A DNA stretch of 13,763 nt from a virus (Duplodnaviria; Heunggongvirae; Uroviricota; Caudoviricetes). Positions 1-13,763 of this stretch are shown piece by piece. Location: IMG/VR virus record IMGVR_UViG_2537562217_000016; one strand, given 5' to 3'. The notes beneath the pieces were generated by a model. The model was not told the DNA's origin. It saw nothing but the letters and a program-made list of their open reading frames with translations, and did no database searches. The translations under genes were made by a program, and so were the position numbers. Each line of letters begins with the position of its first letter. Within the stretch, counting starts at the first letter, position 1.

Positions 1-1259
<1,259 letters not shown>

Positions 1260-1284
<25 letters not shown>

Positions 1285-1664
1285 CGCATAATCCGGGATA
1301 CGCATTCAGCGATGACTGCATTTTCACCGGTTTTTACTGCATCCAGAAGTGACTCTTTAAATGGTACGGGCCGGGGCTGCAGAAAGGTCGGCATGGCATT
1401 GAGCAGACAGAGCGTTTTTTCCGTGAGGACGACATCAGCCGCTCCCACAGCCAGCAACTGAGAGTAACGAATATAGCTGTTATCCCGAAGCCATATCAGC
1501 GTATCAATAAAACACCGGCACTTTTTCTGGTCGTGATCAACCTGGTCCGGGATATCGAAAAAACCAGAATAAATCAAAACCTGAGGTGCCGGATGCGTGT
1601 TCAGTAATCGGCAGAATATTTTGCCGGTGAGTACATAAAAATCATCATTTAAGGAGTGCATCAT
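1260..1664 (-). CDS. Hypothetical protein (134 aa), no recognisable family
   Basis: Only long ORF covering 1285..1662; convergent with and overlapping the P-loop ORF by 25 bp. Its start codon overlaps the start of the divergent 71-aa ORF, so strand assignment is uncertain. Confidence 0.35.
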
Positions 1665-1878
1665 GAATCCCCGATTAACGTTAACAGAACATCAGCGCCG
1701 TGCTGAAGCAGTGAACAATGTTCTGGAAGATATTATCCGGTTATACCGCGGAGAACTGAGTGTCTGTCGTGCCGCTTTTCATTTTCAGGGAATACAAAAG
1801 CAGTTTGATACTTCTGTTTTTGCAGAAGGTATTACTTATGCCCTGGACCGGATAAGGTCAGAAAATCGCCCCGGATAA
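1663..1878 (+). CDS. Hypothetical small protein (71 aa)
   Basis: Strong RBS AAGGAG (1651..1656) 6 nt upstream of ATG 1663; followed by a 12-bp-stem hairpin at 1933..1964. Confidence 0.45.
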   Translation: MNPRLTLTEHQRRAEAVNNVLEDIIRLYRGELSVCRAAFHFQGIQKQFDTSVFAEGITYALDRIRSENRPG

Positions 1879-1932
1879 TCCCTAAACCACATTAACAGAA
1901 ATCCCGCCATCCCTGCCGCATCATGAAAGAAC

Positions 1933-1964
1933 GACCAGCCCGGCACCCGAAAGCCGGGCTGGTC
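1933..1964. other. Perfect 12-bp stem / 8-nt loop hairpin (gaccagcccggc acccgaaa gccgggctggtc); possible terminator or REP-like element
   Basis: Read directly. No T-run follows on the plus strand; a weak T-rich tract (GTTCTTTCA) follows on the minus strand. Confidence 0.4.
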
Positions 1965-2068
1965 ATCGCCCCACAGGAATGCGCTGTGAGCCGACCAAGG
2001 TTCAGTCAGTCTCGCGAGACCTGACCAGACTGCCATATTTTTTAATAATTGTAAAAGGCTTACAGATT

Positions 2069-2833
2069 ATGAAAATGCAGACATTACCCATCGTGCCGTG
2101 GATTGGTGGCAAACGCCGCCTTGCAAAACACATTCTGCCGCTGTTTCCGGCGCATGAATGTTATGTGGAGCCGTTTTGTGGGGCAGCAGCGCTCTATTTT
2201 CTTAAGACACCCGGCAAGATCGAAGTCATCAATGATATCAACGGTGAACTGGTGAATCTGTACCGGGTGGTAAAGCATCACCTGGAAGAATTTGTCCGCC
2301 AGTTCAAATGGGCGCTGGTCAGCCGTCAGATCTACAAATGGCTGCAGATCACCCCGGAAGAAACACTGACGGATATCCAGCGTGCGGCACGGTTCTACTA
2401 CCTTCAGAAGCAGGCGTTTGGCGGCAAGGTGGCAGAGCACAGCTTCGGTACCTCCACCACATCCCCGCCACGCTTCAACCTGCTACGTATTGAAGAAGAA
2501 CTGTCAGCGGCACACCTGCGGCTTTCCAGAACAGTCATAGAACACATGGACTGGCAACAGTGCATTGAGCGTTATGATCGTCCGCACACGCTGTTCTACT
2601 GCGACCCACCGTACCTGGGTACGGAAGGCTATGGTGTGGATTTTCCTGAAGGGAACTACTCGCGGCTGGCAGAGCTGGCCCGGTGCATCAGAGGAAAAAT
2701 GATAATTTCGGTGAACGACATCCCGCAGATGCGCGAGGTGTTCACTGGACTGAACATACAGACAGTGAATATCAACTACAGTCTGGCGGGTAAACCCACG
2801 CCGCGCCGTGAACTGCTAATCTGCAACTTCTGA
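2069..2833 (+). CDS. Dam-family (D12 class) N6-adenine DNA methyltransferase, orphan
   Basis: N-terminal AdoMet-binding region PWIGGKRRL...EPFCGAAALYF and catalytic DPPY motif (LFYCDPPYLGTEGY); overall resemblance to Dam. Start chosen at ATG 2069 (RBS AAAAGG 2053..2058) rather than the longer track ORF from 1979. No adjacent restriction endonuclease candidate. Confidence 0.85.
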   Translation: MKMQTLPIVPWIGGKRRLAKHILPLFPAHECYVEPFCGAAALYFLKTPGKIEVINDINGELVNLYRVVKHHLEEFVRQFKWALVSRQIYKWLQITPEETLTDIQRAARFYYLQKQAFGGKVAEHSFGTSTTSPPRFNLLRIEEELSAAHLRLSRTVIEHMDWQQCIERYDRPHTLFYCDPPYLGTEGYGVDFPEGNYSRLAELARCIRGKMIISVNDIPQMREVFTGLNIQTVNINYSLAGKPTPRRELLICNF

Positions 2834-2840
2834 AACAAAA

Positions 2841-2863
2841 CCGGAAAGCACAATGCTTTCCGG
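2841..2863 (-). terminator. Rho-independent terminator for the leftward repressor transcript
   Basis: Perfect 10-bp stem ccggaaagca / tgctttccgg with a 3-nt loop, followed on the minus strand by TTTTGTTTCA (2840..2831). About 85 bp downstream of the repressor stop and abutting the dam stop. Confidence 0.55.
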
Positions 2864-2949
2864 TAAACCAAACAACTTCCACTATGTCACTGGCGATGTT
2901 TTCTGAAAGCATCCAGATCAACCACCTGTCCTTTGTGTCCGGGTCAGTA

Positions 2950-3306
2950 TCAGCCTGCGATTTTTCCTGGTTTTGGCTGAGTATAGAATCGCCCAATCTC
3001 AAGAAATGAGCGTTGTTGGTCTGGTGTCATGTCGTCAAAAGTATCTATTAGTTTTTGTTTTTCTGGGGAAATTTGATTCTGGTTTCTAGTCATACCATCT
3101 GTGCTCATTCCAGTGAGCAACCAATTTACATCAACATTAAACTCTTGATGCATCTTTAACAGAAACTCCCCTCCAGGCATCGCCTTTCCATTTTCAATCT
3201 GACTGATACCACCATTAGAAATACCTAAACGAGCTGCAAATTCTCTCTGGTTCAACCCTGCTTTCTTCCTCACAGAAATAACGCGCTCTCCTATATCTTT
3301 GCTCAT
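2950..3306 (-). CDS. Phage repressor, XRE/Cro-CI family HTH
   Basis: HTH_3 signature LNQREFAARLGISNGGISQIENGKAMP near the N-terminus; divergent from the early operon; operator half-site overlaps its start codon. Confidence 0.8.
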   Translation of the reverse strand: MSKDIGERVISVRKKAGLNQREFAARLGISNGGISQIENGKAMPGGEFLLKMHQEFNVDVNWLLTGMSTDGMTRNQNQISPEKQKLIDTFDDMTPDQQRSFLEIGRFYTQPKPGKIAG

Positions 3307-3329
3307 AAAAGTGAATCTCTATCTTGATA

Positions 3330-3347
3330 TGCTCATAATTATGAGCA
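3330..3347. promoter_or_regulatory. Operator: perfect 18-bp palindrome TGCTCATAATTATGAGCA within a candidate early promoter
   Basis: Read directly. It fills the spacer between candidate -35 TTGATA (3324..3329) and -10 ATAATC (3348..3353); a third copy of the half-site TGCTCATAA sits at 3300..3308 over the repressor start codon. Confidence 0.5.
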
Positions 3348-3399
3348 ATAATCTAACACATATAAGGCAAACATCATTGCATCAACAAAGGAGACAACG

Positions 3400-3588
3400 A
3401 TGACTGCAGAACAAGTCAAAGCTCTCTTCCGCCAGCGCGGGATCACTTTCACCCGCTGGGCAGAAGAAAACGGCTACAACCGCAATGAGGTATACCGCGT
3501 TCTCAACGGGCAGACCAAAGCCCGTTACGGTAAATCCCATGAAATCGCCGTGAAGTTGGGACTGAAATCAACAGCTCAGGCGGCCTAA
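3400..3588 (+). CDS. ner: Ner-like small DNA-binding protein (winged HTH, Ner/Nlp-type), first gene of early operon
   Basis: RBS AGGAG 3389..3393, ATG 3400. 62 aa with HTH and a C-terminal GKSHEIAVKLGL resembling the Ner/Nlp GE.IIAKALG motif; position equivalent to Mu ner. Confidence 0.6.
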   Translation: MTAEQVKALFRQRGITFTRWAEENGYNRNEVYRVLNGQTKARYGKSHEIAVKLGLKSTAQAA

Positions 3589-3640
3589 ATATTTTGAGTC
3601 TTTGTAAAAGGTTATCACATATCGCAAAAGAGGTATGCAG

Positions 3641-3949
3641 ATGAGTAAGACGAATGTTTCAAGCTCCGGCAGTCGCATCCTCCGGGTACTCAAAGCGCTG
3701 CGCGGTCATGCCCTGAACGGTATTTCTAACGGTGAACTGGCGACAGCACTGCACGAGTCACCGGCAAACATCAACCGGGCACTCAACACCCTCATTGAAG
3801 AAGGGCTGGCTCTGAAACTGGAGAACGGACGTTTTGCACCGGGCATCCAGTTACTGCAGATCGCCATGGCCCACAGTAACGAGATGGCACGTGCACAGGA
3901 TCGTATTAACGAAATTAACCAACGTGTCATTTCAGGTAGTCGTTTGTAA
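3641..3949 (+). CDS. Winged-helix DNA-binding protein (MarR/IclR-like HTH), hypothetical regulator
   Basis: RBS AAAAGAGG 3626..3633 favours ATG 3641 over ATG 3635. Motif GISNGELATALHESPANINRALNTLIEEGL is typical of a wHTH recognition helix. Confidence 0.6.
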   Translation: MSKTNVSSSGSRILRVLKALRGHALNGISNGELATALHESPANINRALNTLIEEGLALKLENGRFAPGIQLLQIAMAHSNEMARAQDRINEINQRVISGSRL

Positions 3950-3959
3950 GGAGTAATCA

Positions 3960-4880
3960 ATGGGACGTACCAAATCACCGATTAACACTGAACTGAACGC
4001 CGATGTACCGCTGTCGGATGATCTCAACGTCAGCCTGAATGCCATGACACAGCATCGCATGGAGATCATGCAGCAGTTTGGTGATGGACTGCCTTATGAA
4101 CGTGAACGCATCGTTCACGAAGCACGTTTTTATATGGCGCAGAGTGCTGAATCTATGTTGGAAGCGGGTAAGCGGCTGATCATCTTAAAAGAAAATGAAC
4201 CGCATGGTGATTTCACAAATATTCTGGAAAACGACCTCGGATTAGCACCACAGGTAGCTCGTCGCATGATGCAGGCCAGCGTGAAATTTCTCGGCAATGG
4301 AGATGAACAGCCAAAACGCTCAGCGCTGAGCGTTTTGGGAAAAACCAAGTTATATGAACTGATGGTTCTGGATGACGAAGAACTCGACGCATTAGCTGAT
4401 GGTGGAACCGTCGCCGGTGCAACGCTTGATGATATTGATCGCATGACCAGCCGCGAACTGAAGGCCGCCCTGCGTGAAGCGCGCGAAACCAACGCAGCTC
4501 AGCAACAGGTGCTTGCCGGAAAGGACGAAAAAATCAACGAACTGGCCACAAAACTGGAGAAGAAATCGCGCCTGCAACCTCCGCCGCCAGACGAAGAACT
4601 GAAAAAATTGCGGGCGGAAGTGACGGCATTAGCGGTTGAGGCCGAATCGGCTATCGCCGTCCGGCTGTCCAGTGTTTTTGAGACCCTGTGTGAATACTGC
4701 ACCAAAAACATGATCGATACCCCCAGAGATTTCATGGCCGGTCTGGTCTGCCAGATTGAACGCAGTGTTCATGCATTACGTGAGACGTTTGACCTTGAGG
4801 CCGCTCCATCGGGTAACGATGCCCCCGCCTGGCTGACCGAACCGGAACCTGAAATCAACCGACCGGAGGATATGCAGTAA
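3960..4880 (+). CDS. Hypothetical protein with DUF3102-like N-terminal region and central coiled coil (306 aa)
   Basis: RBS TAAGGAG 3948..3954, ATG 3960. Coiled-coil-like segment ETNAAQQQVLAGKDEKINELATKLEKK...LKKLRAEVTALAVEAE; the DUF3102 resemblance is recalled, not searched. Confidence 0.65.
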   Translation: MGRTKSPINTELNADVPLSDDLNVSLNAMTQHRMEIMQQFGDGLPYERERIVHEARFYMAQSAESMLEAGKRLIILKENEPHGDFTNILENDLGLAPQVARRMMQASVKFLGNGDEQPKRSALSVLGKTKLYELMVLDDEELDALADGGTVAGATLDDIDRMTSRELKAALREARETNAAQQQVLAGKDEKINELATKLEKKSRLQPPPPDEELKKLRAEVTALAVEAESAIAVRLSSVFETLCEYCTKNMIDTPRDFMAGLVCQIERSVHALRETFDLEAAPSGNDAPAWLTEPEPEINRPEDMQ

Positions 4881-5197
4881 TGAATACGAATAACACACAA
4901 AATACCCTGATGGACAGCCCGGAGGCACTGGGGCACGCACTGTGTAATCTGCTGCCGGAGATGGTGCAGGGTTTCCGCGTGGTGACCCCTTCCGGTGAAA
5001 TCTGCGTACCCGCACAGGAGACGCACCCGTTTGTACTGACGATGGAGGTGATGCTGATGCAGCAGATAAGACGTCTGCAGAATCAGTCAGCATTACGCCC
5101 GGTAGTTGCACCGCAACCGGTAAATACCGTGGTGAAAACCTGCGATGGCGAAACACTGTGCGACCTCGCCAGAAAAATTGCCGCCAGAATCGGATAA
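4880..5197 (+). CDS. Hypothetical protein (105 aa)
   Basis: Start ATG overlaps the upstream stop (TAATG at 4878..4882), indicating translational coupling; no recognisable motif. Confidence 0.5.
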   Translation: MNTNNTQNTLMDSPEALGHALCNLLPEMVQGFRVVTPSGEICVPAQETHPFVLTMEVMLMQQIRRLQNQSALRPVVAPQPVNTVVKTCDGETLCDLARKIAARIG

Positions 5198-5212
5198 CAG
5201 GGAAGACAAGCT

Positions 5213-6982
5213 ATGACCCCGGCACTGACTGAAAAACTGGTTGAAACAGCCCGCGCGGCACGTGACGCGGGGCATGGTAAACGCGGTGCAATATACGACG
5301 CTGCCTGTGCTGAACTTGGCATGTCCCGCGCCACTCTGCTGCGCAGGCTGAAGGAGGTATCTGTGACTGATAAACGCAAAAAACGCGCCGATGCCGGGCG
5401 CAGCGCCCTGACCCGCGACGAAGCCGCGCTGATATCTGCCACACTGCGTGAGGCCACCCGCAAGAACGGTAAGCGTCTCTATTCCATCGCAGATGCAGTG
5501 GAAACCCTGCGGGCTAACGGCTTTATCACCGCAGGCAGAACAGATGAAACCACCGGTGAGTTTTTCCCGTTGTCTGAAGATGCCATCAGCCGTGCTCTGC
5601 GTAACTATGGCCTGCACCCGGAACAACTGGATGCCCCTGCACCACATACCGAAGTGGCCAGTCTGCATCCCAATCATGTCTGGCAGATTGACGCCTCACT
5701 CTGCACGCTTTACTACCTGAGCAATGGACATAAAGGGCTGCAGGTGATGGACAGCGCGAAGTTCTACAAGAACAAGCCCGCTAACCTTGCCCGTATCGCC
5801 AGTGACCGCGTGTGGAGTTACGAGATTACCGACCATGCCAGCGGCTGGATTTACGTTGAGTATGTGACGGGCGCGGAATCAGGTGAGAACCTGTGTTCTG
5901 TGCTTATCAACGCCATGCAGGAGCGTGGCGGCGCAGACGTGCTGCACGGCGTGCCGAAAATACTCTATCTCGACCCCGGCTCGGCAAACACCGCGGGTAT
6001 GACGAAAAACATGTGCCGCTCACTGGGCATCGACCTGATAGCGCACAAGCCGCATAACGCCCGCGCCACCGGACAGGTGGAAAAGGCGCGTGACATTATC
6101 GAACGCAAGCTGGAGCCGGGTCTGAAGTTCCGGCCGGTTCACAGTCTGGAAGAACTCAACGCGCTGGCCGCGAAATGGCGCAGCCACTTTAACGCCACGG
6201 CTGTTCACAGCCGCCACGGTAAAACCCGCACGGATATCTGGCTGAAGATTACTGCTGAGCAGCTGAAAAAAGCGCCTTCCGTTGAGGTATGTCGTGAACT
6301 GGCTGTGGCGGCACCAGAACTCCGCAAAGTCACGCCAAAACTTCGTGTCTCGTTCCGGGGCACTGAATTTGACGTATCAACGGTACCGGGCGTACTGGTT
6401 GGTGAAAAACTGATGATTACCCGTAACCCATGGCGCAGCGATGTGGCACAGGTGGTTCTGACCGGTGAGGACGGCCACGAGACGTTCTTCCTGGTCGAAG
6501 AGGTCAGAAAGAACAAGTTTGGCTTTGCTGAAGGCGCGGCGGTATTTGGCGAAAGTTACAAAGCCCTGCCGGAAACCCCGGCACAGATGGCGGCAAAAGA
6601 AACCGAAGCGCTGGTTACCGGTACAGACAACGCCGCAGATGCAGCCGCCGCACGCAAGGCGAAGGCGCTGCCGTTCGGCGGGCGGCTTGACCCGTATAAA
6701 CATATCGACGACACCACACTTCCGGCCTATATGCCGAAGCGTGGTCAGGCCTCTGACGTACGCGGGCCGCGCACTGAACAACGTCCCATGACTCATGTGG
6801 AGGCCGCGAAAGCCCTGCGCGATAAGTTCAGCGCCGACGGCCTTACCTGGACGCCGGAACATTACCGCCAGTTAACGGCACAGTACCCGGACGGCGTACC
6901 GGAAGCCGCACTGGATGAAGTCATGGCCACGCTGACCACACCGGCCCGCAGCAGTGTTATCAGCATTGTTAACGGCAACTGA
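5213..6982 (+). CDS. DDE transposase of transposable phage (TnsB/Tn552/TniA-type DD(35)E core; MuA analogue)
   Basis: Catalytic triad read from the translation: D160 (HVWQIDAS, codon 5690..5692), D254 (ILYLDPGS, 5972..5974), E290 (ATGQVEKAR, 6080..6082), i.e. D-93-D-35-E. Basic N-terminal DNA-binding region. Position between ner and the ATPase. Confidence 0.85.
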   Translation: MTPALTEKLVETARAARDAGHGKRGAIYDAACAELGMSRATLLRRLKEVSVTDKRKKRADAGRSALTRDEAALISATLREATRKNGKRLYSIADAVETLRANGFITAGRTDETTGEFFPLSEDAISRALRNYGLHPEQLDAPAPHTEVASLHPNHVWQIDASLCTLYYLSNGHKGLQVMDSAKFYKNKPANLARIASDRVWSYEITDHASGWIYVEYVTGAESGENLCSVLINAMQERGGADVLHGVPKILYLDPGSANTAGMTKNMCRSLGIDLIAHKPHNARATGQVEKARDIIERKLEPGLKFRPVHSLEELNALAAKWRSHFNATAVHSRHGKTRTDIWLKITAEQLKKAPSVEVCRELAVAAPELRKVTPKLRVSFRGTEFDVSTVPGVLVGEKLMITRNPWRSDVAQVVLTGEDGHETFFLVEEVRKNKFGFAEGAAVFGESYKALPETPAQMAAKETEALVTGTDNAADAAAARKAKALPFGGRLDPYKHIDDTTLPAYMPKRGQASDVRGPRTEQRPMTHVEAAKALRDKFSADGLTWTPEHYRQLTAQYPDGVPEAALDEVMATLTTPARSSVISIVNGN

Positions 6983-6992
6983 GGAGGGAAAC

Positions 6993-8159
6993 ATGCTGGT
7001 ACTGAAGCAGCAACTGAAAGAGGCCCGTATTCCACAGGCGGTGGTGGCGAGAGCTGTCGATGTTTCTGAGGCCACGCTGGCCCAGATTGTGAATCATAAC
7101 GCGTGGCCCCGCACCAGCCCCGGAGAAGTGCGCCGGCGTCTTGCGTCCTGGCTGGAAAGTCAGGGGATTGATACAACGAAGAGTTTTGATGCTGTACAGG
7201 GCGCGGCCACGCCCCGTACAGCGGGTACCACAGATAAAACGAGCCTCAGTGAGGAAGAGAATATGTTACTCAAAAAACAGGTGTTATTTCCAGCAACCAA
7301 AAAAGCGTTTGGTCTTTTCCGTGACCCGTTCGCCGACGAAGCCATGCAGGGTTCTGATGATGTGTTCACCACCCCGGATATTCGCTACGTGCGTGAGGCG
7401 TTGTACCAGACAGCCCGTCATGGTGGGTTTATGGCCGTCATCGGTGAGTCCGGTGCGGGTAAATCCACGCTGCGCCGCGACCTGACTGAACGTATCAACC
7501 GCGAGAATGCGCCGGTAATTGTTATCGAGCCATACATCATCGCTATGGAAGACAACGATGTGAAAGGGAAAACCCTGAAGGCAGCAGCGATTGCCGAAGC
7601 CATTATCAGTACCATCGCACCACTGGAAAGCATCAGACGCAGTCAGGACGCCCGCTTTCGCCAGTTGCATCGCGTCCTGAAAGACAGCAGCCAGGCGGGG
7701 TTCAGCCACGTTCTGGTGATTGAGGAGGCCCACAGTCTGCCCATTCCGACACTGAAACACCTCAAACGCTTTTTTGAGCTGGAGTCCGGTTTCAAAAAAC
7801 TGCTGTCCATCGTGCTGATTGGCCAGCCGGAACTGGCGACAAAACTGTCTGAACGCAATATGGAAGTCCGTGAAGTCGTTCAGCGCTGTGAGGTGGTCGA
7901 ACTTCTGCCTCTGGACAATAACCTTGAAGAGTTTCTGACGTTCAAACTGCAACGGGCCGGTAAACAACTGACGGACATTATGGACGCCAGCGCAGTGGAT
8001 GCCATACGTGCCCGCCTGAGCAATCCGGGAAGTCATCGTAAAAATATGGTCAGCCTGCTGTATCCGCTGGCCGTCAGTAACCTGGTAATAGCCGCCATGA
8101 ATCTGGCCGCTGAAATCGGGGTTCCACAGGTCAACGCTGACGTTGTCAAAGGGGTTTAA
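6993..8159 (+). CDS. Transposition-associated AAA+ ATPase (MuB/TniB/TnsC analogue) with N-terminal HTH extension
   Basis: RBS GAGGAGGG 6981..6988, ATG 6993, 10 nt after the transposase stop. Walker A GESGAGKST (~7441..7470), Walker B HVLVIEEAH; N-terminal HTH-like ARAVDVSEATLAQIVNHN. Confidence 0.8.
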   Translation: MLVLKQQLKEARIPQAVVARAVDVSEATLAQIVNHNAWPRTSPGEVRRRLASWLESQGIDTTKSFDAVQGAATPRTAGTTDKTSLSEEENMLLKKQVLFPATKKAFGLFRDPFADEAMQGSDDVFTTPDIRYVREALYQTARHGGFMAVIGESGAGKSTLRRDLTERINRENAPVIVIEPYIIAMEDNDVKGKTLKAAAIAEAIISTIAPLESIRRSQDARFRQLHRVLKDSSQAGFSHVLVIEEAHSLPIPTLKHLKRFFELESGFKKLLSIVLIGQPELATKLSERNMEVREVVQRCEVVELLPLDNNLEEFLTFKLQRAGKQLTDIMDASAVDAIRARLSNPGSHRKNMVSLLYPLAVSNLVIAAMNLAAEIGVPQVNADVVKGV

Positions 8160-8161
8160 TA

Positions 8162-8431
8162 ATGAAATCCACCACAGGTATCAACCAGCAAATCAGCAAA
8201 GTGCAGTCAGCCATTATGGCGCTTAAGGCGACGAACACGGATGTACAAAGCATCACCATCAGGGGTAACAAACCTGTCATCCGCGTTTCCCGGAGTGCGC
8301 ATTGCATGCGCATGCTTGAGCAGGGAAAGGCCTGTTATCTGTATACCGGTCATGACCACAGGGGACATTTCCGTCAGGGCGTTTTCGAACTGCACGGCTG
8401 TCGCGTCGTGTGGCCGGAATCTTTGTGGTAA
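8162..8431 (+). CDS. Hypothetical protein (89 aa) in the position of Mu kil
   Basis: ATG 2 nt after the ATPase stop; Cys/His-rich C-terminal half (HCMRM...CYLYTGHDHRGH...HGC). Function unknown. Confidence 0.5.
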   Translation: MKSTTGINQQISKVQSAIMALKATNTDVQSITIRGNKPVIRVSRSAHCMRMLEQGKACYLYTGHDHRGHFRQGVFELHGCRVVWPESLW

Positions 8432-8458
8432 TCAGCACAACAGGAGGAGTCATAAAAT

Positions 8459-8989
8459 ATGGCAAAAAGTACAAAAGGGGCAAAACGTATCAAAGCCGCA
8501 GCAGCACTCTGGGTGCCGGGGACACGCGAAGAGGTCATTGAGGGAATCAGACTGCTTGGTGACGCGCAACGTGAACTGGTCAGGGCTGAAACAGAAATGA
8601 ATGACACCATTGGCGACATCACTGCACGTTATGCCCCGCTCACCGAGAGCCTGAAAAAACGCATGGCCGAACTGCAGTCCGGTATCCAGACATGGTGTGA
8701 GGCGCACCGTGATGAACTGACCGGCAACGGGAAGGTGAAGTTCGCTAACCTCACCACCGGCGAGGTGCAGTGGCGAAACCGTCCGCCGTCAGTCAGCATT
8801 CGCGGGGCGGATAATGTCATTGAACTGCTGAGACGTCTGGGGCTTGAGCGCTTTATTCGTGTAAAGGAGGAAATAAATAAAGATGCCATTCTGAATGAAA
8901 AAGAGGCTGTGAAAAATATTCCCGGTATTACCATAAAAAGTGATATTGAGGATTTTTCAATAATTCCTTTTGAGCAGGATGTGCAGTAA
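8459..8989 (+). CDS. gam: Host-nuclease inhibitor protein Gam (Mu Gam family)
   Basis: RBS AGGAGG 8442..8447. Extended colinear similarity to phage Mu Gam as recalled: RIKAAAA, ETEMND, WCEAHRDELTGNGKVKFANLTTGEVQWRNRPPSVSIRG, LGLERFIRVKEEINKDAIL, GITIKSDIEDFSIIPFEQ. Confidence 0.9.
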   Translation: MAKSTKGAKRIKAAAALWVPGTREEVIEGIRLLGDAQRELVRAETEMNDTIGDITARYAPLTESLKKRMAELQSGIQTWCEAHRDELTGNGKVKFANLTTGEVQWRNRPPSVSIRGADNVIELLRRLGLERFIRVKEEINKDAILNEKEAVKNIPGITIKSDIEDFSIIPFEQDVQ

Positions 8990-9086
8990 ACACACCACGT
9001 TAATTATTTAATAAAAACATTTTCTTTTTTATTCCGGCGTCAGCGCCGCGGGCTTCTGCACGCCGGAAACAGAGGAGAATTAAATT

Positions 9087-9281
9087 ATGATATTTAAATG
9101 TATTCAGTGCGAGAGGGATATAACAGCCCTGCGTTTTCACAGCGCCATCGCCGTGATGTCCGGTAAGTATCACATACCTGCAGTACGTGTCACCCTGGTC
9201 TGCCCGTACTGCAGCCAGCATTTTTCGGCGGACGTGCCCGTCATGGAATTCTCCCGCCCTGACAGGGAGGACGCGCAATGA
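9087..9281 (+). CDS. Small zinc-ribbon protein (64 aa; CxxC ... CxxC)
   Basis: RBS GAGGAG 9073..9078, ATG 9087. Cys pairs KCIQCE and VCPYCS. Confidence 0.5.
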   Translation: MIFKCIQCERDITALRFHSAIAVMSGKYHIPAVRVTLVCPYCSQHFSADVPVMEFSRPDREDAQ

Positions 9282-9550
9282 TTACCCCACAGGAAGCACG
9301 ACAGCGCACCCGAACTCTTGTTGAACACTATGTCAACGAGTGTGAATGCCGCGACCTCACCGATGTGAAGCACGTCCTGACGGCGCTAATCAGCATGGCC
9401 ACACAGGCCATTGTGGCGACCAACGGAAAGGAGGCTGCCCTGCAGGTACTGATGAACACACTCACCCACACGGCAGAGCATGAGGTGCCGTACCGGATGG
9501 AAACCACTGCAGAAGGCGGCCTGCACATCACCGTCAGCCGGAAGCACTGA
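9278..9550 (+). CDS. Hypothetical protein (90 aa)
   Basis: ATGA start/stop overlap with the upstream ORF (translational coupling); no recognisable motif. Confidence 0.45.
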   Translation: MITPQEARQRTRTLVEHYVNECECRDLTDVKHVLTALISMATQAIVATNGKEAALQVLMNTLTHTAEHEVPYRMETTAEGGLHITVSRKH

Positions 9551-9559
9551 GGGCGCGGC

Positions 9560-9856
9560 ATGACACGAAACACCGAACTCACCCGCACCGCCCTCTACCG
9601 TCTGGCCCTGCAGCGTTTCGGGCCGGACGCACAGGCCCTGAAACTGGCAGAAGAGGCCGCTGAACTGGCGGCCAGTGCCGCCCGCAACCTGAACGGACAG
9701 GGCAGCGAAAGTGACCTCGCGGCAGAGCTGGCAGACGTGGAAATCATGACAGAGCAACTGCGCCTTCAGGGGATGGACCGGCTGATTGACTTCCACAAAC
9801 AGAAAAAACTGGAACGTCTGGCTGCACGACTGGGCGTGATTTACACGAACGAGTAA
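9560..9856 (+). CDS. Putative MazG-like all-alpha NTP pyrophosphohydrolase-domain protein (98 aa)
   Basis: Acidic helix motifs LAEEAAELAASAA and AAELADVEIMTEQL plus C-terminal KQKKLERL resemble the EExxE/ExxD metal-binding helices of small phage MazG-like proteins. Assignment is from motifs only. Confidence 0.45.
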   Translation: MTRNTELTRTALYRLALQRFGPDAQALKLAEEAAELAASAARNLNGQGSESDLAAELADVEIMTEQLRLQGMDRLIDFHKQKKLERLAARLGVIYTNE

Positions 9857-9870
9857 CCGGGAGGCATTCA

Positions 9871-10086
9871 ATGGCTGACATACTCAGGGAAATCACCGCA
9901 TGGACACTGATTCTTACTGGCCTGGCGACATGCCTCAGTGCGGGGGCAGCCCTGGCTGCCCTGCTGATGCACATAACAACACAGTGGTTATGGGAAAAGC
10001 TTAAAGCAGCATACAGCCTGAAAGAGCTGTCCGACGCTGTCCGGGCATGGAAACGGCAGAAAAATACCGGAGATACAGAACAATGA
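9871..10086 (+). CDS. Small membrane protein (71 aa; one predicted TM helix)
   Basis: RBS GGGAGG 9857..9862, ATG 9871. Hydrophobic stretch WTLILTGLATCLSAGAALAALLM. Confidence 0.45.
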   Translation: MADILREITAWTLILTGLATCLSAGAALAALLMHITTQWLWEKLKAAYSLKELSDAVRAWKRQKNTGDTEQ

Positions 10087-10766
10087 CAGACCAGAATAAA
10101 CACATTGAGAAACTGAAAAAGTTGCTGGCGCTGGCCGCATCCGGCAACCCGCACGAGGCCGCTCTGGCACTGCGCCGAGCCCGTAAACTGATGGATGTTC
10201 ACGGCATCACACATTCCGACATTGCTATGAGTGATATTGATGAAACCATCAGTCACTACTGGCCGACAGGCAGTCTCCGTCCACCGCGCTACATGCTGGG
10301 CCTGATGAACATCATCCGCGAGGTATTTGGTGTTAACTCCATCATTCACCCCGGCACGCATCCGTCTGTGGGGTTCTACGGCAACCGGGAACGTGCGGCA
10401 CTGGCTGCATACACCTGGGAAGTGCTGGCCCGTCAGCTGAAAAAGGCGCGTCAGCAGTATATCAGTGCACAGAACAAAAGAATAAAAACCGCCACCCGCA
10501 CCAGCCGTGGAGACCAGTTTGCCGAAGGCTGGGTGCTGGCCGTTATCAGTGAAATACAGTCCTTTGCCCTGACCGATGATGAGCGTGAATTGATGCAGCA
10601 GTGGCTGGAACATAAATACCCGCAGACGCAAACCACCAGGGCGCGTAAACCGGGAAGAAGCCGCAATGGCGACGCCTCGCGCTATGCGGGGTTTCGTGAA
10701 GGGCAGAACGTCAGACTGCACCGCCCGGTCAGTGGGCAGGAACAACAGAAACTGGAGGCCAGATGA
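10083..10766 (+). CDS. DUF2786-like protein (227 aa)
   Basis: ATG 10083 overlaps the upstream stop (ATGA) and is preferred over the track start at 10047. N-terminal motif IEKLKKLLALAASGNPHEAALALRRARKLM resembles the DUF2786 signature as I recall it. Confidence 0.6.
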   Translation: MTDQNKHIEKLKKLLALAASGNPHEAALALRRARKLMDVHGITHSDIAMSDIDETISHYWPTGSLRPPRYMLGLMNIIREVFGVNSIIHPGTHPSVGFYGNRERAALAAYTWEVLARQLKKARQQYISAQNKRIKTATRTSRGDQFAEGWVLAVISEIQSFALTDDERELMQQWLEHKYPQTQTTRARKPGRSRNGDASRYAGFREGQNVRLHRPVSGQEQQKLEAR

Positions 10767-10993
10767 TTACGCTATCAGGTAAAAGCCGGAAATTAAAAGC
10801 CTGCCGAATATCTGCCAGATACCTTTTTGCCCGCGCCTTTTTTAAGAACGTCAGGCCGGGGATCACAATTGGTGTTATTGCCGGACGCGAACAGGTTGAA
10901 AAATACATGTCAGGTGCATGGTGGAATAACGACCCTGTCATTGCTGCCCGTAATATTCATATCGAATGGGGAGGTATTCAGAATGACTACTGA
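10763..10993 (+). CDS. Hypothetical protein (76 aa)
   Basis: ATGA overlap with the upstream ORF stop; no motif recognised. Confidence 0.4.
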   Translation: MITLSGKSRKLKACRISARYLFARAFFKNVRPGITIGVIAGREQVEKYMSGAWWNNDPVIAARNIHIEWGGIQNDY

Positions 10994-11189
10994 AACCATT
11001 GTCTGTTTTCTTTTCTGGTATATGTACGCAGGATCATGCAGCGCAAGACTTCATCGTTCCCTGGGCTATGGCAGGCACTACGACACCGCGCATTACATCC
11101 TGTACATGACCGCCGTCATGTTGTTCTGGCCAGTCACCCTGCCAGCTGCAACCGACATTGTTGCCGACAGACTGAAAAAAAGGAGATGA
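10983..11189 (+). CDS. Small membrane protein (68 aa; two hydrophobic segments)
   Basis: ATG 10983 overlaps the upstream ORF end. Hydrophobic segments IVCFLFWYMYAG and ILYMTAVMLFWPV. The track's longer ORF from 10827 is rejected as an upstream extension. Confidence 0.4.
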   Translation: MTTETIVCFLFWYMYAGSCSARLHRSLGYGRHYDTAHYILYMTAVMLFWPVTLPAATDIVADRLKKRR

Positions 11190-11190
11190 T

Positions 11191-11388
11191 ATGCAGAAAA
11201 AACGCCTGATACAGCTTATCCATATTGCCCGTAATGAACTGGGTATGGATGAAGACACCTACCGCCAGATGTTACAGGGGCTGACCGGTAAAGCCTCAAC
11301 CAAAGGAATGGATACCACACAACTAAACTGCGTGCGTAAGCGTCGTCTCAGCACCGTCTGGCAGATCCTGAAATTCCTGAGAGAATAG
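11191..11388 (+). pseudogene. GemA/gp16-like (DUF1018) gene truncated by IS66-family insertion; only ~48 native codons (11191..~11335) remain
   Basis: RBS AGGAG 11181..11185, ATG 11191. N-terminal LIQLIHIARNELGMDEDTYRQMLQGLTGKASTKGM matches the conserved start of Mu gp16/GemA-like proteins as I recall it. The reading frame runs into the IS end at ~11336 and stops at 11386..11388. Confidence 0.55.
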
Positions 11389-11416
11389 TGGACACCAAAT
11401 ATGGTGGACGCTATTC

Positions 11417-11821
11417 ATGAAATCATTAACCGCAGTGCGTAAAAAAAGCCCTAATTATCCCGTTGAGTTCAAAATCAAAATGGTGGAACTCTCGCATCGA
11501 CCAGAGATCTCCGTAGCGCAACTCGCTCGTGAGCATGGGATCAACGATAATTTGCTGTTCAAGTGGCGCCAGTACTGGCGCGAAGGAAAACTACGTCCTC
11601 CTTCAACAACAGAAAACAACGTGCCTGAGCTGCTCCCGATAACACTTGATGCCGAAGATGTTGTCCCTACAACCTCCCCCCGGTCACAACCTGTAGCTGC
11701 TGCGACACCTGAATCACTCAATATCAGCTGTGAAGTGACGTTCCGGCACGGATCACTCCGTCTGAATGGTGCCATCAGCGAAAATATCCTGAACCTGCTG
11801 ATACGGGAGCTCAAACGTTGA
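11417..11821 (+). CDS. tnpA: IS66-family accessory protein TnpA (orfA)
   Basis: 134 aa with HTH region ISVAQLAREHGINDNLLFKWRQYW; first ORF of the IS66 module. Confidence 0.85.
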   Translation: MKSLTAVRKKSPNYPVEFKIKMVELSHRPEISVAQLAREHGINDNLLFKWRQYWREGKLRPPSTTENNVPELLPITLDAEDVVPTTSPRSQPVAAATPESLNISCEVTFRHGSLRLNGAISENILNLLIRELKR

Positions 11822-12165
11822 TCCCATTACCATCAGGGACAAAGATCTGGCTGGTCGCTGGCATCACCGATATGAGAAACGGCTTCAACGGCCTGGCGGC
11901 AAAGGTGCAGACGACGCTGAAAGACGATCCGATGTCAGGTCACGTTTTTATCTTCCGTGGGCGTAATGGCAGTCAGGTAAAGCTCCTCTGGTCTACCGGC
12001 GATGGACTGTGTCTGCTGACCAAACGGCTGGAGCGCGGCCGCTTCGCCTGGCCGTCAGCCCGGGATGGCAAAGTGTTCCTCACACCGGCACAGCTGGCGA
12101 TGCTGCTGGAAGGTATCGACTGGCGGCAGCCTAAAAGACTACTTACGTCCCTGACTATGTTGTAA
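11818..12165 (+). CDS. tnpB: IS66-family TnpB (orfB)
   Basis: Highly characteristic IPLPSGTKIWLVAGITDMRNGFNGLAAKVQ... N-terminus; TTG start at 11818 overlaps the tnpA stop (11819..11821). Confidence 0.9.
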   Translation: MIPLPSGTKIWLVAGITDMRNGFNGLAAKVQTTLKDDPMSGHVFIFRGRNGSQVKLLWSTGDGLCLLTKRLERGRFAWPSARDGKVFLTPAQLAMLLEGIDWRQPKRLLTSLTML

Positions 12166-12213
12166 GCCTCTTTATCCTGGTCGACGCTGAATGAGCCTGG
12201 TAATATACCCGGT

Positions 12214-13751
12214 ATGAGCAGCTCACTTCCTGACGATATCAATGCACTGAAACGTCTCCTTGCCGAACAGGAGGCGCTGAACCGTGCCCTGCTGGAAAAG
12301 CTGAACGAGCGTGAACGCGAAATAGACCATCTGCAGGCACAGCTGGATAAGCTGCGCCGGATGAACTTCGGCAGCCGCTCGGAAAAAGTCTCCCGTCGTA
12401 TCGCACAGATGGAAGCTGACCTGAAGGCACTTCAGAAAGAAAGTGATACCCTTACCGGTCGGGTTGACGACCCGGCCGTGCAGCGCCCGCTGCGTCAAAC
12501 CCGCACCCGCAAACCGTTCCCCGAATCACTCCCCCGCGATGAAAAACGGCTGCTGCCGGCAGCGTCATGCTGCCCGGAATGTGGAGGCTCGCTGAGCTAT
12601 CTGGGTGAGGATGCCGCCGAACAGCTGGAGTTGATGCGCAGCGCCTTCCGGGTTATCCGGACTGTACGTGAAAAGCATGCCTGTACTCAGTGCGATGCCA
12701 TCGTGCAGGCCCCCGCGCCTTCACGGCCCATCGAGCGGGGTATCGCAGGACCGGGGCTGCTGGCCCGCGTGCTGATCTCAAAGTATGCAGAGCACACCCC
12801 GCTGTACCGCCAGTCTGAAATGTACGGCCGCCAGGGCGTGGAGCTGAGTCGTTCACTGCTGTCGGGCTGGGTGGATGCATGCTGCCGGCTACTGTCACCG
12901 CTGGAAGAAGCGCTTCAGGACTATGTGCTGACTGACGGTAAGCTCCATGCTGATGACACGCCTGTCCCGGTGCTGTTGCCAGGCAATAAGAAAACGAAGA
13001 CCGGGCGGTTATGGACCTACGTTCGTGACGACCGTAACGCCGGGTCAACGCTGGCGCCGGCGGTGTGGTTCGCTTACAGCCCGGACAGAAAAGGCATCCA
13101 TCCGCAGACCCATCTTGCGGGGTTCAGTGGTGTACTGCAGGCGGATGCATACGCCGGGTTCAACGAGCTGTACCGGGATGGCCGGATAACGGAAGCCGCC
13201 TGTTGGGCTCACGCCCGCCGTAAAATCCACGATGTGCACGTTCGCACCCCGTCAGCCCTGACGGAGGAAGCGCTGAACGGATCGGCGAACTGTACGCCAT
13301 CGAGGCAGAGATAAGGGGAATGACGGCGGAGCAGCGCCTTGCCGAACGTCAGTTGAAAACGAAACCGCTGCTGAAATCCCTGGAAAGCTGGCTGCGTGAA
13401 AAGATGAAAACCCTGTCGCGACACTCAGAACTGGCGAAAGCGTTCGCATACGCCCTGAACCAGTGGCTGGCGCTGACGTACTATGCAGATGATGGCTGGG
13501 CTGAGGCGGACAATAACATCGCTGAAAATGCGTTGCGGATGGTCAGTCTGGGCCGCAAAAACTACCTGTTCTTCGGTTCGGATCATGGAGGAGAGCGGGG
13601 AGCGCTGCTGTACAGCCTGATCGGGACGTGCAAACTGAACGGAGTGGAGCCAGAAAGCTACCTCCGCTATGTCCTTGACGTCATAGCCGACTGGCCGATA
13701 AACCGGGTCGGCGAACTGCTCCCCTGGCGCGTAGCACTGCCGACTGAATAA
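12214..13751 (+). pseudogene. tnpC: IS66-family transposase TnpC (orfC), interrupted by an apparent 1-nt frameshift near 13276..13278
   Basis: ORF 12214..13314 (366 aa; leucine-zipper-like N-terminus, CPECGG zinc-finger-like motif, DDE region) and ORF 13320..13751 (143 aa) are colinear in different frames. The downstream frame is already open from ~13260 (…[20 protein letters not shown]…), and the combined ~510 aa matches full-length TnpC. Confidence 0.8.
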
Positions 13752-13763
13752 CACATCCCCGTC

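What the first reader, a model, noticed from the sequence alone, without database searches (positions are those of the whole stretch)
2950..11335. Transposable prophage with Mu-like gene order but a non-MuA transposase
The gene order (repressor, Ner-like, transposase, ATPase, kil-position ORF, Gam, semi-essential small ORFs, GemA-like) is that of the Mu early region, and Gam is a clear Mu Gam homologue. However, the transposase shows a D-93-D-35-E core with a WQID motif typical of TnsB/TniA/Tn552-type enzymes and no resemblance to MuA as I recall it. This is the pattern reported for BcepMu-like phages.
Basis: partly seen in the sequence, partly recalled or inferred. Interest (0 to 1): 0.5.

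Follow-up and report, generated by a model that had tools for sequence, protein, structure and literature searches.

The report
BcepMu-type transposable prophage, IS-disrupted
This is the early (regulation and transposition) region of a well-known, very common E. coli prophage of the BcepMu group, which copies itself like phage Mu but with a different, Tn552-related transposase; this copy is cut on both sides by insertion sequences, and nothing about it is new.

Summary
Window 574-11335 is prophage DNA. It is 99.4% identical to Escherichia phage PhiKM (genus Bcepmuvirus) and 99.8% to prophages in complete E. coli genomes. It is 99.99% identical to an E. coli draft contig.

The 589-aa transposase has D160/D254/E290 (D-93-D-35-E) and WQID at 157-160. 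It is 68% identical over its full length to BcepMu TnpA. BLASTP finds no similarity to MuA (E 0.47), and Pfam finds only rve. Profile comparison shows remote homology to the MuA family (core plus beta-barrel, E 1e-7) and a closer link to Tn552 p480. The partner ATPase is ExeA-type (59% to BcepMu gp08), not MuB-like. Gam is 62% identical to Mu Gam.

- Prophage DNA starts at 574, not 2950.
- Three BcepMu-type genes lie between the Ner-position gene and tnpA.
- In intact relatives the early operon reads outward to the phage end (B3/BcepMu layout, inverted relative to Mu).

Those relatives have TG...CA termini and 6-bp target duplications at two different sites. Here IS100 (1-573) and an IS66-family element (from 11336) bound the fragment. 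The IS66 element cuts gemA after codon 48 and separates mor, so this copy is probably not inducible. Already known; low interest.

The parts
1..573 (-). End of IS100 (IS21 family), with the 5' part of istA on the minus strand. Not part of the phage. It is inserted 18 nt into the first prophage gene.
   Evidence: 99% identical to IS100 copies in >2,600 E. coli genomes. Three copies with different flanks all end at ...GTTCGTGACA = window 573.
574..1284 (+). Prophage gene for a P-loop protein of unknown function (phrog_3787). It lacks its first 6 codons because of IS100.
   Evidence: phrog_3787 E 8e-169. Identity to the intact prophage L002 starts at window 574.
1260..1878 (.). Two small prophage genes of unknown function: 1260-1664 (-), 134 aa, and 1663-1878 (+), 71 aa.
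   Evidence: Annotated in the same order in PhiKM and E. coli prophages. No Pfam or PADLOC hits.
2069..2833 (+). Phage Dam-type N6-adenine DNA methyltransferase.
   Evidence: Pfam MethyltransfD12 E 6e-29. TIGR00571 dam at 116 bits, cut-off 114.85 (scored on the longer ORF 1979-2833).
2840..2864 (.). Perfect 11-bp stem hairpin between the convergent dam and repressor genes; a candidate terminator.
   Evidence: consensus scan only.
2950..3306 (-). cI/Cro-type HTH repressor. It is the counterpart of BcepMu gp17 and the functional analogue of Mu c.
   Evidence: Pfam HTH_3 E 5e-15 and Phage_CI_repr E 2e-5. Transcribed divergently from the early operon.
3307..3399 (.). Switch region. It holds the early-promoter-like site 3324-3352 (+) and an 18-bp perfect palindrome TGCTCATAATTATGAGCA (3330-3347) in the promoter spacer, a candidate operator.
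   Evidence: The function is inferred, not shown.
3400..3588 (+). First early gene, a BcepMu gp16-family HTH protein in the Ner position.
   Evidence: TIGR04111 BcepMu_gp16 at 97 bits, cut-off 34. 46% identical to BcepMu gp16. No BLASTP match to Mu Ner.
3641..5197 (+). Three early genes absent from Mu: a wHTH regulator (3641-3949, like BcepMu gp12), a DUF3102 protein (3960-4880, like BcepMu gp10) and a 105-aa protein (4880-5197, phrog_5446).
   Evidence: tblastn to BcepMu gives 34% and 39% identity.
5213..6982 (+). TnpA, a DDE transposase of the BcepMu/B3 (Tn552-related) family. It has an N-terminal HTH region, an RNase H-like core (D160, D254, E290), a beta-barrel at about residues 369-430 and a C-terminal helical tail.
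6993..8159 (+). TnpB-like AAA+ ATPase (ExeA/AAA_22 type), the presumed transposition partner and target-DNA protein.
   Evidence: Pfam AAA_22 E 4e-20. 59% identical to BcepMu gp08. In phrog_296 together with MuB. No BLASTP similarity to MuB.
8162..8431 (+). 89-aa ORF in the kil position, function unknown (phrog_2041).
   Evidence: No match to Mu.
8459..8989 (+). Gam, a Mu-type protector of DNA ends and host-nuclease inhibitor.
   Evidence: Pfam Phage_Mu_Gam E 1e-40. 62% identical to Mu Gam. BcepMu has no counterpart.
9087..11189 (+). Semi-essential-type early genes: small ORFs 9087-9281 and 9278-9550; MazG-like NTP pyrophosphohydrolase 9560-9856; ORF 9871-10086; DUF2786/DUF7168 protein 10083-10766; ORFs 10763-10993 and 10983-11189.
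   Evidence: The same genes are annotated in PhiKM and E. coli prophages.
11191..11335 (+). First 48 codons of gemA, cut by the IS66-family insertion. The called 65-aa ORF 11191-11388 is a gemA'-IS66 chimera.
   Evidence: 50% identical to the Mu GemA N-terminus and 35% to BcepMu gp02. Junction shown. The intact gene is 149 aa in L002.
11336..13763 (+). IS66-family element (left IR GTAAGCG...). It has orfA 11417-11821, orfB 11818-12165 and a DDE transposase 12214-13751 that is frameshifted near 13277. It runs off the window end and is not part of the phage.

Best explanation
Window 574-11335 is the regulatory and early (transposition/replication) arm of an E. coli prophage of the BcepMu group (genus Bcepmuvirus, the B3/BcepMu type of transposable phage).

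Mechanism, inferred from homology to BcepMu/B3/Tn552 and from general Mu biology:
- The cI-type repressor (2950-3306) is inferred to shut the divergent early promoter, probably through the 18-bp palindrome at 3330-3347.
- On derepression the early operon is read rightward.
- The DDE transposase TnpA (D160/D254/E290) binds the phage ends. These are TG...CA termini with GATAAATG repeats, seen only in intact relatives.
- With the ExeA-type AAA+ ATPase as target-DNA partner, TnpA carries out integration and replicative transposition with 6-bp target duplications.
- Gam protects the linear DNA ends.
- The operon should end with gemA and mor, and Mor turns on middle and late genes.

In this copy an IS66-family element cuts gemA after codon 48 and lies upstream of where mor should be. 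IS100 sits 18 nt into the first gene left of dam. The copy is therefore most likely a crippled, non-inducible prophage or a remnant, while its repressor, Dam and transposition genes remain intact ORFs.
For: Identity to known phage DNA:
- 99.4% nt identity over 8.5 kb to phage PhiKM, classified in Bcepmuvirus.
- 99.8% over 574-11335 to a 37.4-kb prophage in E. coli FDAARGOS_1267 that has lysis, head, tail, gemA and mor genes.
- 99.99% to draft contig APXV01000001.1.

BcepMu gene set: TnpA 68%, ATPase 59%, gp16 46%, gp10 39%, gp12 34% and GemA 35% identical to BcepMu, in the same order. The BcepMu_gp16 NCBIfam model is passed.

Catalytic triad: invariant, with DD35E spacing.

Not Mu: no BLASTP similarity to MuA, MuB or Ner.

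Transposition footprint in relatives: two independent insertion sites (waaH/yibQ, and the start of ycaL) with termini TGATG...AATCA and 6-bp duplications ATTATT and GAAGAA. This matches the published B3/Tn552-family footprint (PMC8705779).

Layout: published for B3/BcepMu (PMC5977238; BcepMu record).

IS junctions.
Against: - No phage end, structural gene or mor gene is inside the window, so what lies beyond the two IS elements in this strain is unknown.
- Transposase activity, the operator and the role of the ATPase are inferred from homology, not shown.
- The claim that the copy is non-inducible rests on the expected polarity of a 2.5-kb IS upstream of mor, not on data.
- The structural models are of modest confidence (mean pLDDT 61-63).
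Confidence: 0.93

Rival explanations
1. It is a canonical Mu-like (Muvirus-type) prophage whose transposase is simply a diverged MuA.
For: Gam is 62% identical and the GemA N-terminus 50% identical to Mu. MuA and this TnpA share phrog_310, and MuB and the ATPase share phrog_296. hhalign links the two transposase families at probability 94%.
Against: There is no pairwise similarity to MuA, MuB or Ner, and no MuA Pfam domains. The triad spacing is D-93-D-35-E, against D269/D336/E392 in MuA. In relatives the early operon is inverted relative to the phage ends and the duplications are 6 bp, not 5 bp. The protein is 68% identical to BcepMu TnpA.
Confidence: 0.02
2. It is not a phage but a non-phage transposon of the Tn552/Tn7/Tn402 kind (transposase plus AAA+ ATPase) that has picked up phage-like genes.
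For: The closest non-phage relative of the TnpA/ATPase pair is a resolvase-transposase-ExeA ATPase module on the Salmonella plasmid pSENV (E 4e-19 and 2e-14). No structural genes are in the window.
Against: The same DNA at 99.4-99.8% identity is contiguous with complete lysis, head and tail modules in PhiKM and in E. coli prophages, and in a 37.5-kb draft contig carrying the same gemA::IS66 allele. The pSENV proteins are only 26-28% identical. Gam, GemA and the BcepMu gp16/gp12/gp10 homologues are phage genes.
Confidence: 0.02
3. The 10.8-kb segment is an isolated prophage remnant. IS100- or IS66-mediated deletion or inversion has removed or displaced the structural half and/or the mor end, so the IS elements are rearrangement scars rather than simple insertions into an otherwise complete prophage.
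For: Both borders of the phage DNA are IS ends. No complete E. coli genome has the IS100 junction or the whole window layout. All contigs with both IS elements are about 13.7 kb and stop inside the IS copies.
Against: A contig with the identical gemA::IS66 junction but no IS100 continues about 27 kb leftward. That is the right length for the whole lysis/head/tail arm, which fits IS66 being a simple insertion in a complete prophage in that lineage. Only 18 nt of the left gene are missing at the IS100 junction, as expected for a plain insertion.
Confidence: 0.3

Closest known systems
Burkholderia phage BcepMu (Bcepmuvirus; Summer et al. 2004, J Mol Biol 340:49) and its E. coli relative Escherichia phage PhiKM (PQ738613)
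   Same: The transposase (68%), ExeA-type ATPase (59%) and gp16, gp12, gp10 and GemA homologues are in the same order. A divergent cI-type repressor is present. The early operon reads outward to the genome end with mor last. Dam and other accessory genes lie between the repressor and the lysis cassette. PhiKM is 99.4% identical in DNA.
   Different: BcepMu has no Gam; its early region carries DUF3164, HU-like and SSB-like genes instead. The E. coli lineage carries a Mu-type Gam (62% to Mu), and its GemA is closer to Mu (50%) than to BcepMu (35%). This copy is interrupted by IS100 and an IS66-family element.
Pseudomonas phage B3 (Beetrevirus) and B3-like transposable phages
   Same: The TnpA is 56% identical over its full length. 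B3 has the same 'inverted early operon' layout and a Tn552-related transposase (PMC5977238; Toussaint & Van Gijsegem 2018, cited in PMC8705779). The 6-bp duplications and TG...CA ends match (PMC8705779).
   Different: B3 is described in the literature as a siphovirus. The E. coli/BcepMu group has a contractile P2-like tail.
Escherichia phage Mu (MuA/MuB)
   Same: The inferred lifestyle is the same. The order within the early operon matches: regulator, transposase, ATPase, small ORFs, Gam, small ORFs, GemA, Mor. Gam and GemA are true homologues. The transposase core and beta-barrel are remotely homologous (hhalign E 1e-7). Relatives carry a Gin-like invertase next to the tail-fibre genes.
   Different: There is no pairwise similarity of TnpA, ATPase, repressor or Ner. 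Spacing is DD35E rather than MuA's D-66-D-55-E. Duplications are 6 bp instead of 5 bp. The early operon is inverted relative to the ends.
Tn552 p480/p271, and the wider TnsB/TniA group of DDE transposases with an AAA+ partner
   Same: It shares the WQxD first-aspartate motif, DD35E spacing and the beta-barrel after the core. hhalign to the p480 fragments gives E 2e-7 and 1e-4. An ATPase gene lies immediately downstream; p271 matches at BLASTP E 0.004. Foldseek's best solved match is TnsB (E 4e-10).
   Different: BLASTP shows only a 46-residue motif-level match to p480, and nothing significant to TniA or TniB. Pfam Mu-transpos_C is not detected. The ATPase is ExeA/AAA_22 type. The element is a 37-kb phage, not a transposon.
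Resolvase / 554-aa transposase / ExeA ATPase module of the Salmonella virulence plasmid pSENV (annotated 'IS481 family transposase')
   Same: It is the best non-phage match for both proteins: transposase 26% over 377 aa, E 4e-19; ATPase 28% over 208 aa, E 2e-14. The gene order is the same.
   Different: It has no phage genes and an adjacent resolvase. The window TnpA scores far below the IS481 NCBIfam cut-off (67 against 224 bits), so it is not an IS481 member.

Membership tests
BcepMu/B3-type transposable phages (Bcepmuvirus) | Transposase homologous over its full length to BcepMu gp09 / B3 TnpA | tested here: met
   68% identity over 98% of its length to BcepMu gp09. 56% to B3 TnpA. Catalytic D, D and E are invariant in the family alignment.
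BcepMu/B3-type transposable phages (Bcepmuvirus) | ExeA-type AAA+ transposition ATPase directly downstream of tnpA | tested here: met
   59% identity to BcepMu gp08. Pfam AAA_22. The gene starts 11 nt after the tnpA stop.
BcepMu/B3-type transposable phages (Bcepmuvirus) | BcepMu gp16-family small HTH protein as the first early gene, divergent from a cI-type repressor | tested here: met
   TIGR04111 at 97.4 bits, cut-off 34. Repressor HTH_3 / Phage_CI_repr on the opposite strand.
BcepMu/B3-type transposable phages (Bcepmuvirus) | Early operon transcribed outward, ending with gemA-mor at a genome end; lysis, head and tail arm on the other side of the repressor | tested here: inconclusive
   Met in near-identical intact prophages L002 and L003 and in BcepMu itself. 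In the window, gene directions agree, but mor, the end and the structural arm lie beyond the IS elements.
BcepMu/B3-type transposable phages (Bcepmuvirus) | TG...CA termini and 6-bp target-site duplication at variable chromosomal sites | tested here: inconclusive
   Not present in the window. Met in two relatives at different loci: TSDs ATTATT and GAAGAA, termini TGATG...AATCA.
BcepMu/B3-type transposable phages (Bcepmuvirus) | Nucleotide-level identity to a classified member | tested here: met
   99.4% over 99% of window 2850-11400 to PhiKM, whose taxonomy line reads Bcepmuvirus.
Mu-like phages in the strict sense (Muvirus; MuA/MuB) | MuA-type transposase (Mu DNA-binding domains, D269/D336/E392 core, Mu-transpos_C) | tested here: not met
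Mu-like phages in the strict sense (Muvirus; MuA/MuB) | MuB-type ATPase, Ner and c repressor homologues; repressor at the left genome end | tested here: not met
   MuB BLASTP E 2.6. Ner E 5.9. In relatives the repressor lies about 9.3 kb from the nearer (mor-side) phage end and about 28 kb from the other, not at a genome end.
Mu-like phages in the strict sense (Muvirus; MuA/MuB) | Gam and GemA homologues in the early region | tested here: met
   Gam 62%. GemA N-terminus 50%.
Tn552 / TnsB / TniA-type DDE transposases | DD(35)E spacing with a W-Q-x-D first motif | tested here: met
   D160-93-D254-35-E290 with WQID. Aligned to Tn552 'IWQADHT', '...YTDHGS...' and '...GKIER...'.
Tn552 / TnsB / TniA-type DDE transposases | Significant sequence similarity to a named member | tested here: inconclusive
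   Profile against Tn552 p480 fragments: probability 93.5%, E 2e-7, and probability 54%, E 1e-4. BLASTP shows only a 46-aa match, E 8e-4. TniA: E 0.08 by BLASTP and probability 23% by hhalign. No TnsB hit by sequence in PDB.
Tn552 / TnsB / TniA-type DDE transposases | Beta-barrel domain after the catalytic core (Pfam Mu-transpos_C) | tested here: inconclusive
   The Pfam model is not matched. A six-strand barrel is predicted at residues ~369-430 with pLDDT 74-87, and it aligns to MuA domain II-beta and to the Tn552 C-terminal region.
IS481 family | Score above the NCBIfam transpos_IS481 cut-off | tested here: not met
   67.3 bits against a cut-off of 224. The similarity covers the HTH and core only.

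The most novel reading that the evidence does not exclude
The gemA::IS66 allele is shared by a lineage of E. coli: 16 contigs carry it, some with and some without the extra IS100. It could be more than decay. By blocking Mor-dependent late expression it may have 'locked in' a prophage whose repressor (immunity), Dam methylase and intact TnpA/ATPase genes are retained for the host's benefit, or could still move DNA in trans. The Mu-type Gam/GemA genes in a BcepMu backbone would then mark this E. coli lineage as a stable Mu x BcepMu hybrid.
Probability: 0.08. Interest if true: 0.3.

Novelty: already known. Interest (0 to 1): 0.1.

Why it matters
It matters little beyond correct annotation.
- The prophage is a textbook member of the BcepMu/B3 branch of transposable phages. 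Its Tn552-related transposase and inverted early operon were described in 2004-2018.
- The tnpA-ATPase module is present in 640 of 5,426 complete E. coli genomes.
- The useful outcome is a clean gene map, the exact IS borders, and a graded statement of how this transposase relates to others: BcepMu, then B3, then the pSENV module, then Tn552, then TniA, then MuA. MuA is a remote homologue rather than unrelated.
- For genome annotation, these genes should not be labelled 'IS481 transposase' or 'general secretion ExeA', and the segment should be flagged as an IS-disrupted prophage.

Tried and rejected
- Sequence searches of the PDB with the protein and with a 20-sequence profile gave no MuA or TnsB hit at E<=10, only weak retroviral integrase matches. 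They could not rank the families.
- The first AlphaFold model (full length, 20 close homologues) had pLDDT below 50 across the catalytic core and was not used for fold search.
- A second database search with a divergent 6-sequence profile still returned only relatives of 56% identity or more, so the alignment stayed shallow. The core-plus-barrel model improved only to pLDDT 63. Its fold-search results are treated as supportive only.
- Phage-end motifs (TGATGCGCC..., GATAAATG) were searched in the window and none was found.
- PADLOC and Pfam scans of the accessory genes left of the repressor and of the small early ORFs found only the Dam methylase.
- The IS481 label, suggested by NCBIfam and tblastn, was rejected as a family assignment. 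The score is far below cut-off, and the best 'IS481' hit is really a 554-aa transposase with its own ExeA ATPase.
- I did not try to find the other sides of the two IS elements, because every contig with both junctions ends inside the IS copies.

Full report
**What is in the window.**
- Six-frame ORF listing and translation show a compact, mostly rightward gene array between about 550 and 11,400. It is flanked by insertion-sequence DNA.
- Window 1-573 is the end of IS100 (IS21 family), with istA on the minus strand. Independent IS100 copies with different flanks all stop at the same base, window 573.
- From 11336 an IS66-family element begins with the typical GTAAGCG inverted repeat. It carries orfA, orfB and a DDE transposase and runs off the window.
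- The 10.76 kb in between (574-11335) is prophage DNA. It is 99.8% identical to a prophage in E. coli FDAARGOS_1267 and 99.4-99.6% to many others.
- Window 2850-11400 is 99.4% identical to Escherichia phage PhiKM, whose record is classified in Bcepmuvirus.
- Window 1191-13763, including the gemA::IS66 junction, is 99.99% identical to the E. coli draft contig APXV01000001.1. The single difference is a 1-nt indel in the IS66 transposase.
- No complete E. coli genome has the IS100 junction or the whole layout.

**Check of the observation.**
- The repressor (2950-3306, minus strand) is a cI/Cro-type HTH protein.
- The first early gene (3400-3588) passes the NCBIfam BcepMu_gp16 model (97 bits, cut-off 34). 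It has only faint profile similarity to the Ner families and no BLASTP similarity to Mu Ner.
- The 589-aa transposase (5213-6982) has WQID at 157-160 and D160, D254 and E290, which is exactly D-93-D-35-E. The triad is invariant in BcepMu, B3, phiSHP3, Mae-JY22 and Bise homologues that share 34-67% identity.
- Gam (8459-8989) is 62% identical to Mu Gam.
- The gemA ORF is only a 48-codon stump fused to IS66 sequence.
The first two are homologues of BcepMu gp12 and gp10.
The Dam methylase and three further genes (574-2833) belong to the same phage.

**What the transposase is.**
- BLASTP against MuA gives nothing (best E 0.47). Pfam finds only rve, with no Mu-specific domains.
- PDB sequence searches with the protein or a family profile hit neither MuA nor TnsB.
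- Against BcepMu gp09 the protein is 68% identical over 98% of its length. Against B3 TnpA it is about 56% identical.
- The partner ATPase (6993-8159, AAA_22/ExeA type) is 59% identical to BcepMu gp08 and shows no BLASTP similarity to MuB.
- The families are not unrelated, however. MuA and this TnpA both fall in phrog_310, and MuB and the ATPase both fall in phrog_296.
- A profile-profile comparison of six BcepMu/B3-type TnpAs with four MuA-family proteins gives probability 94% and E 1.3e-7 over 239 columns. It aligns D254 with MuA D336, E290 with MuA E392, and the following beta-barrel with MuA domain II-beta.
- With single-sequence targets the order is clear. Tn552 p480 (C-terminal fragment) gives E 2e-7 and probability 93.5%, and its N-terminal fragment gives E 1e-4 with IWQAD aligned to VWQID. 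TniA gives E 9e-4 and probability 23%. MuA gives E 0.5.
- The best non-phage match by plain BLASTP is a 554-aa transposase on the Salmonella plasmid pSENV (E 4e-19). It is itself followed by an ExeA-family ATPase that matches the window ATPase (E 2e-14) and is preceded by a resolvase, a Tn552-like three-gene module. Its 'IS481' label does not transfer, because the window protein scores 67 bits against a cut-off of 224.
- A core-plus-barrel AlphaFold model of modest quality (pLDDT 63) shows an RNase H-like fold followed by a six-strand barrel.
- Foldseek ranks TnsB first (E 4e-10), then IstA and retroviral integrases.
- Given the model quality these ranks are supportive only, but they agree with the sequence picture.

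**Layout and footprint in intact relatives.**
- In E. coli FDAARGOS_1267 and KA0011 the same early operon continues through full-length gemA and mor and then reaches the phage end next to host genes. The lysis, head and P2-like tail genes lie on the other side of the repressor, on the opposite strand. This is the BcepMu arrangement and the published B3-type 'inverted early operon' (PMC5977238). It is not the Mu arrangement.
- The two prophages sit at different loci, one between waaH and yibQ and one in the start of ycaL. They share termini 5'-TGATGCGCCGCGCGATAAATG...CTCAAGTCTAATCA-3' and are flanked by 6-bp direct repeats, ATTATT and GAAGAA.
- The intact element is 37,367 bp and has a GATAAATG motif at the same distance from both ends.
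- TG...CA ends and 6-bp duplications are the published footprint of B3/Tn552-family transposition (PMC8705779; PMC2628397 for BcepMu-type TG...CA ends).
- None of these end sequences is in the window.

**How it most likely works.**
- Shown: the gene content, the homologies and the transposition footprint in relatives.
- Inferred: the repressor holds the early promoter shut. The only sigma-70-like site in the 93-bp divergent region is at 3324-3352, and a perfect 18-bp palindrome occupies its spacer.
- Inferred: after derepression, TnpA with the ATPase performs integration and replicative transposition, Gam protects DNA ends, and Mor at the operon's end starts the late cascade.
- In this copy the IS66-family insertion truncates GemA and lies upstream of where mor should be. 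IS100 cuts the first six codons of a P-loop gene next to the lysis cassette. The copy is therefore probably not inducible.
- Whether the remaining phage arms still adjoin the IS elements cannot be told from the window. A 37.5-kb draft contig with the identical gemA::IS66 junction but no IS100 extends about 27 kb to the left. This suggests that IS66 at least is a simple insertion into a complete prophage.

**Comparison and novelty.**
- This is a member of a described group. Relevant sources are BcepMu (Summer et al. [quoted passage not shown]
- Bcepmuvirus prophages are routinely reported in E. coli ST131 and in human gut isolates (bioRxiv 10.1101/2022.05.07.487787; PMC12629997).
- The tnpA-ATPase module is present in 640 of 5,426 complete E. 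coli genomes, with up to three copies in one genome. The 90%-identity protein cluster that contains this TnpA has 5,173 member sequences.
- The one mildly interesting feature is mosaicism. Gam is absent from BcepMu and is Mu-like here, and GemA is closer to Mu than to BcepMu. Mosaicism of this kind is common among phage genomes (general knowledge, not tested here).

**Verdict.** The finding is already known, and interest is low.

Noticed in passing
window 1-573: End of IS100 (IS21 family) with the start of istA on the minus strand. It is inserted 18 nt into the prophage P-loop gene (phrog_3787). No complete E. coli genome has this junction.
   Followed up: yes
window 11336-13763 (about 13277): IS66-family element whose DDE transposase is frameshifted by a 1-nt deletion relative to the otherwise identical draft contig APXV01000001.1 (L022). 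This may be a real mutation or a sequencing error.
   Followed up: partly
L003 2983-6100 (E. coli KA0011): In another lineage an ISEc23 (IS66 family) sits in the same P-loop gene that IS100 hits in the window. These are two independent IS insertions in one non-essential prophage gene.
   Followed up: no
hit H25, E. coli Ec-U4 NZ_CM192147.1 3506819-3520556: The same prophage stretch carries an ISEcp1-blaCTX-M-15 insertion there, so a resistance gene is embedded in a Bcepmuvirus prophage.
   Followed up: no
L021 370-3536 (Salmonella plasmid pSENV NC_019120.1): A resolvase, a 554-aa transposase (labelled IS481 family) and an ExeA-family ATPase form a Tn552-like module. It is the closest non-phage relative of the phage TnpA/ATPase pair, and the IS481 label looks wrong for it.
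   Followed up: partly
window 3330-3347: Perfect 18-bp palindrome TGCTCATAATTATGAGCA inside the spacer of the early-promoter-like site. A related half-site lies at 3298-3308. It is a candidate repressor operator.
   Followed up: partly
L006 745-3029 and L007 6459-8697: Intact relatives carry a Gin/Cin-type serine invertase next to oppositely oriented tail-fibre and assembly genes. This looks like an invertible host-range segment as in Mu, located at the phage end opposite to mor.
   Followed up: no
L018 5765-7304 (S. aureus pMW2): The Tn552 transposase p480 gene is split into two overlapping ORFs (frameshift) in this plasmid copy. For that reason it had to be compared as two fragments.
   Followed up: no
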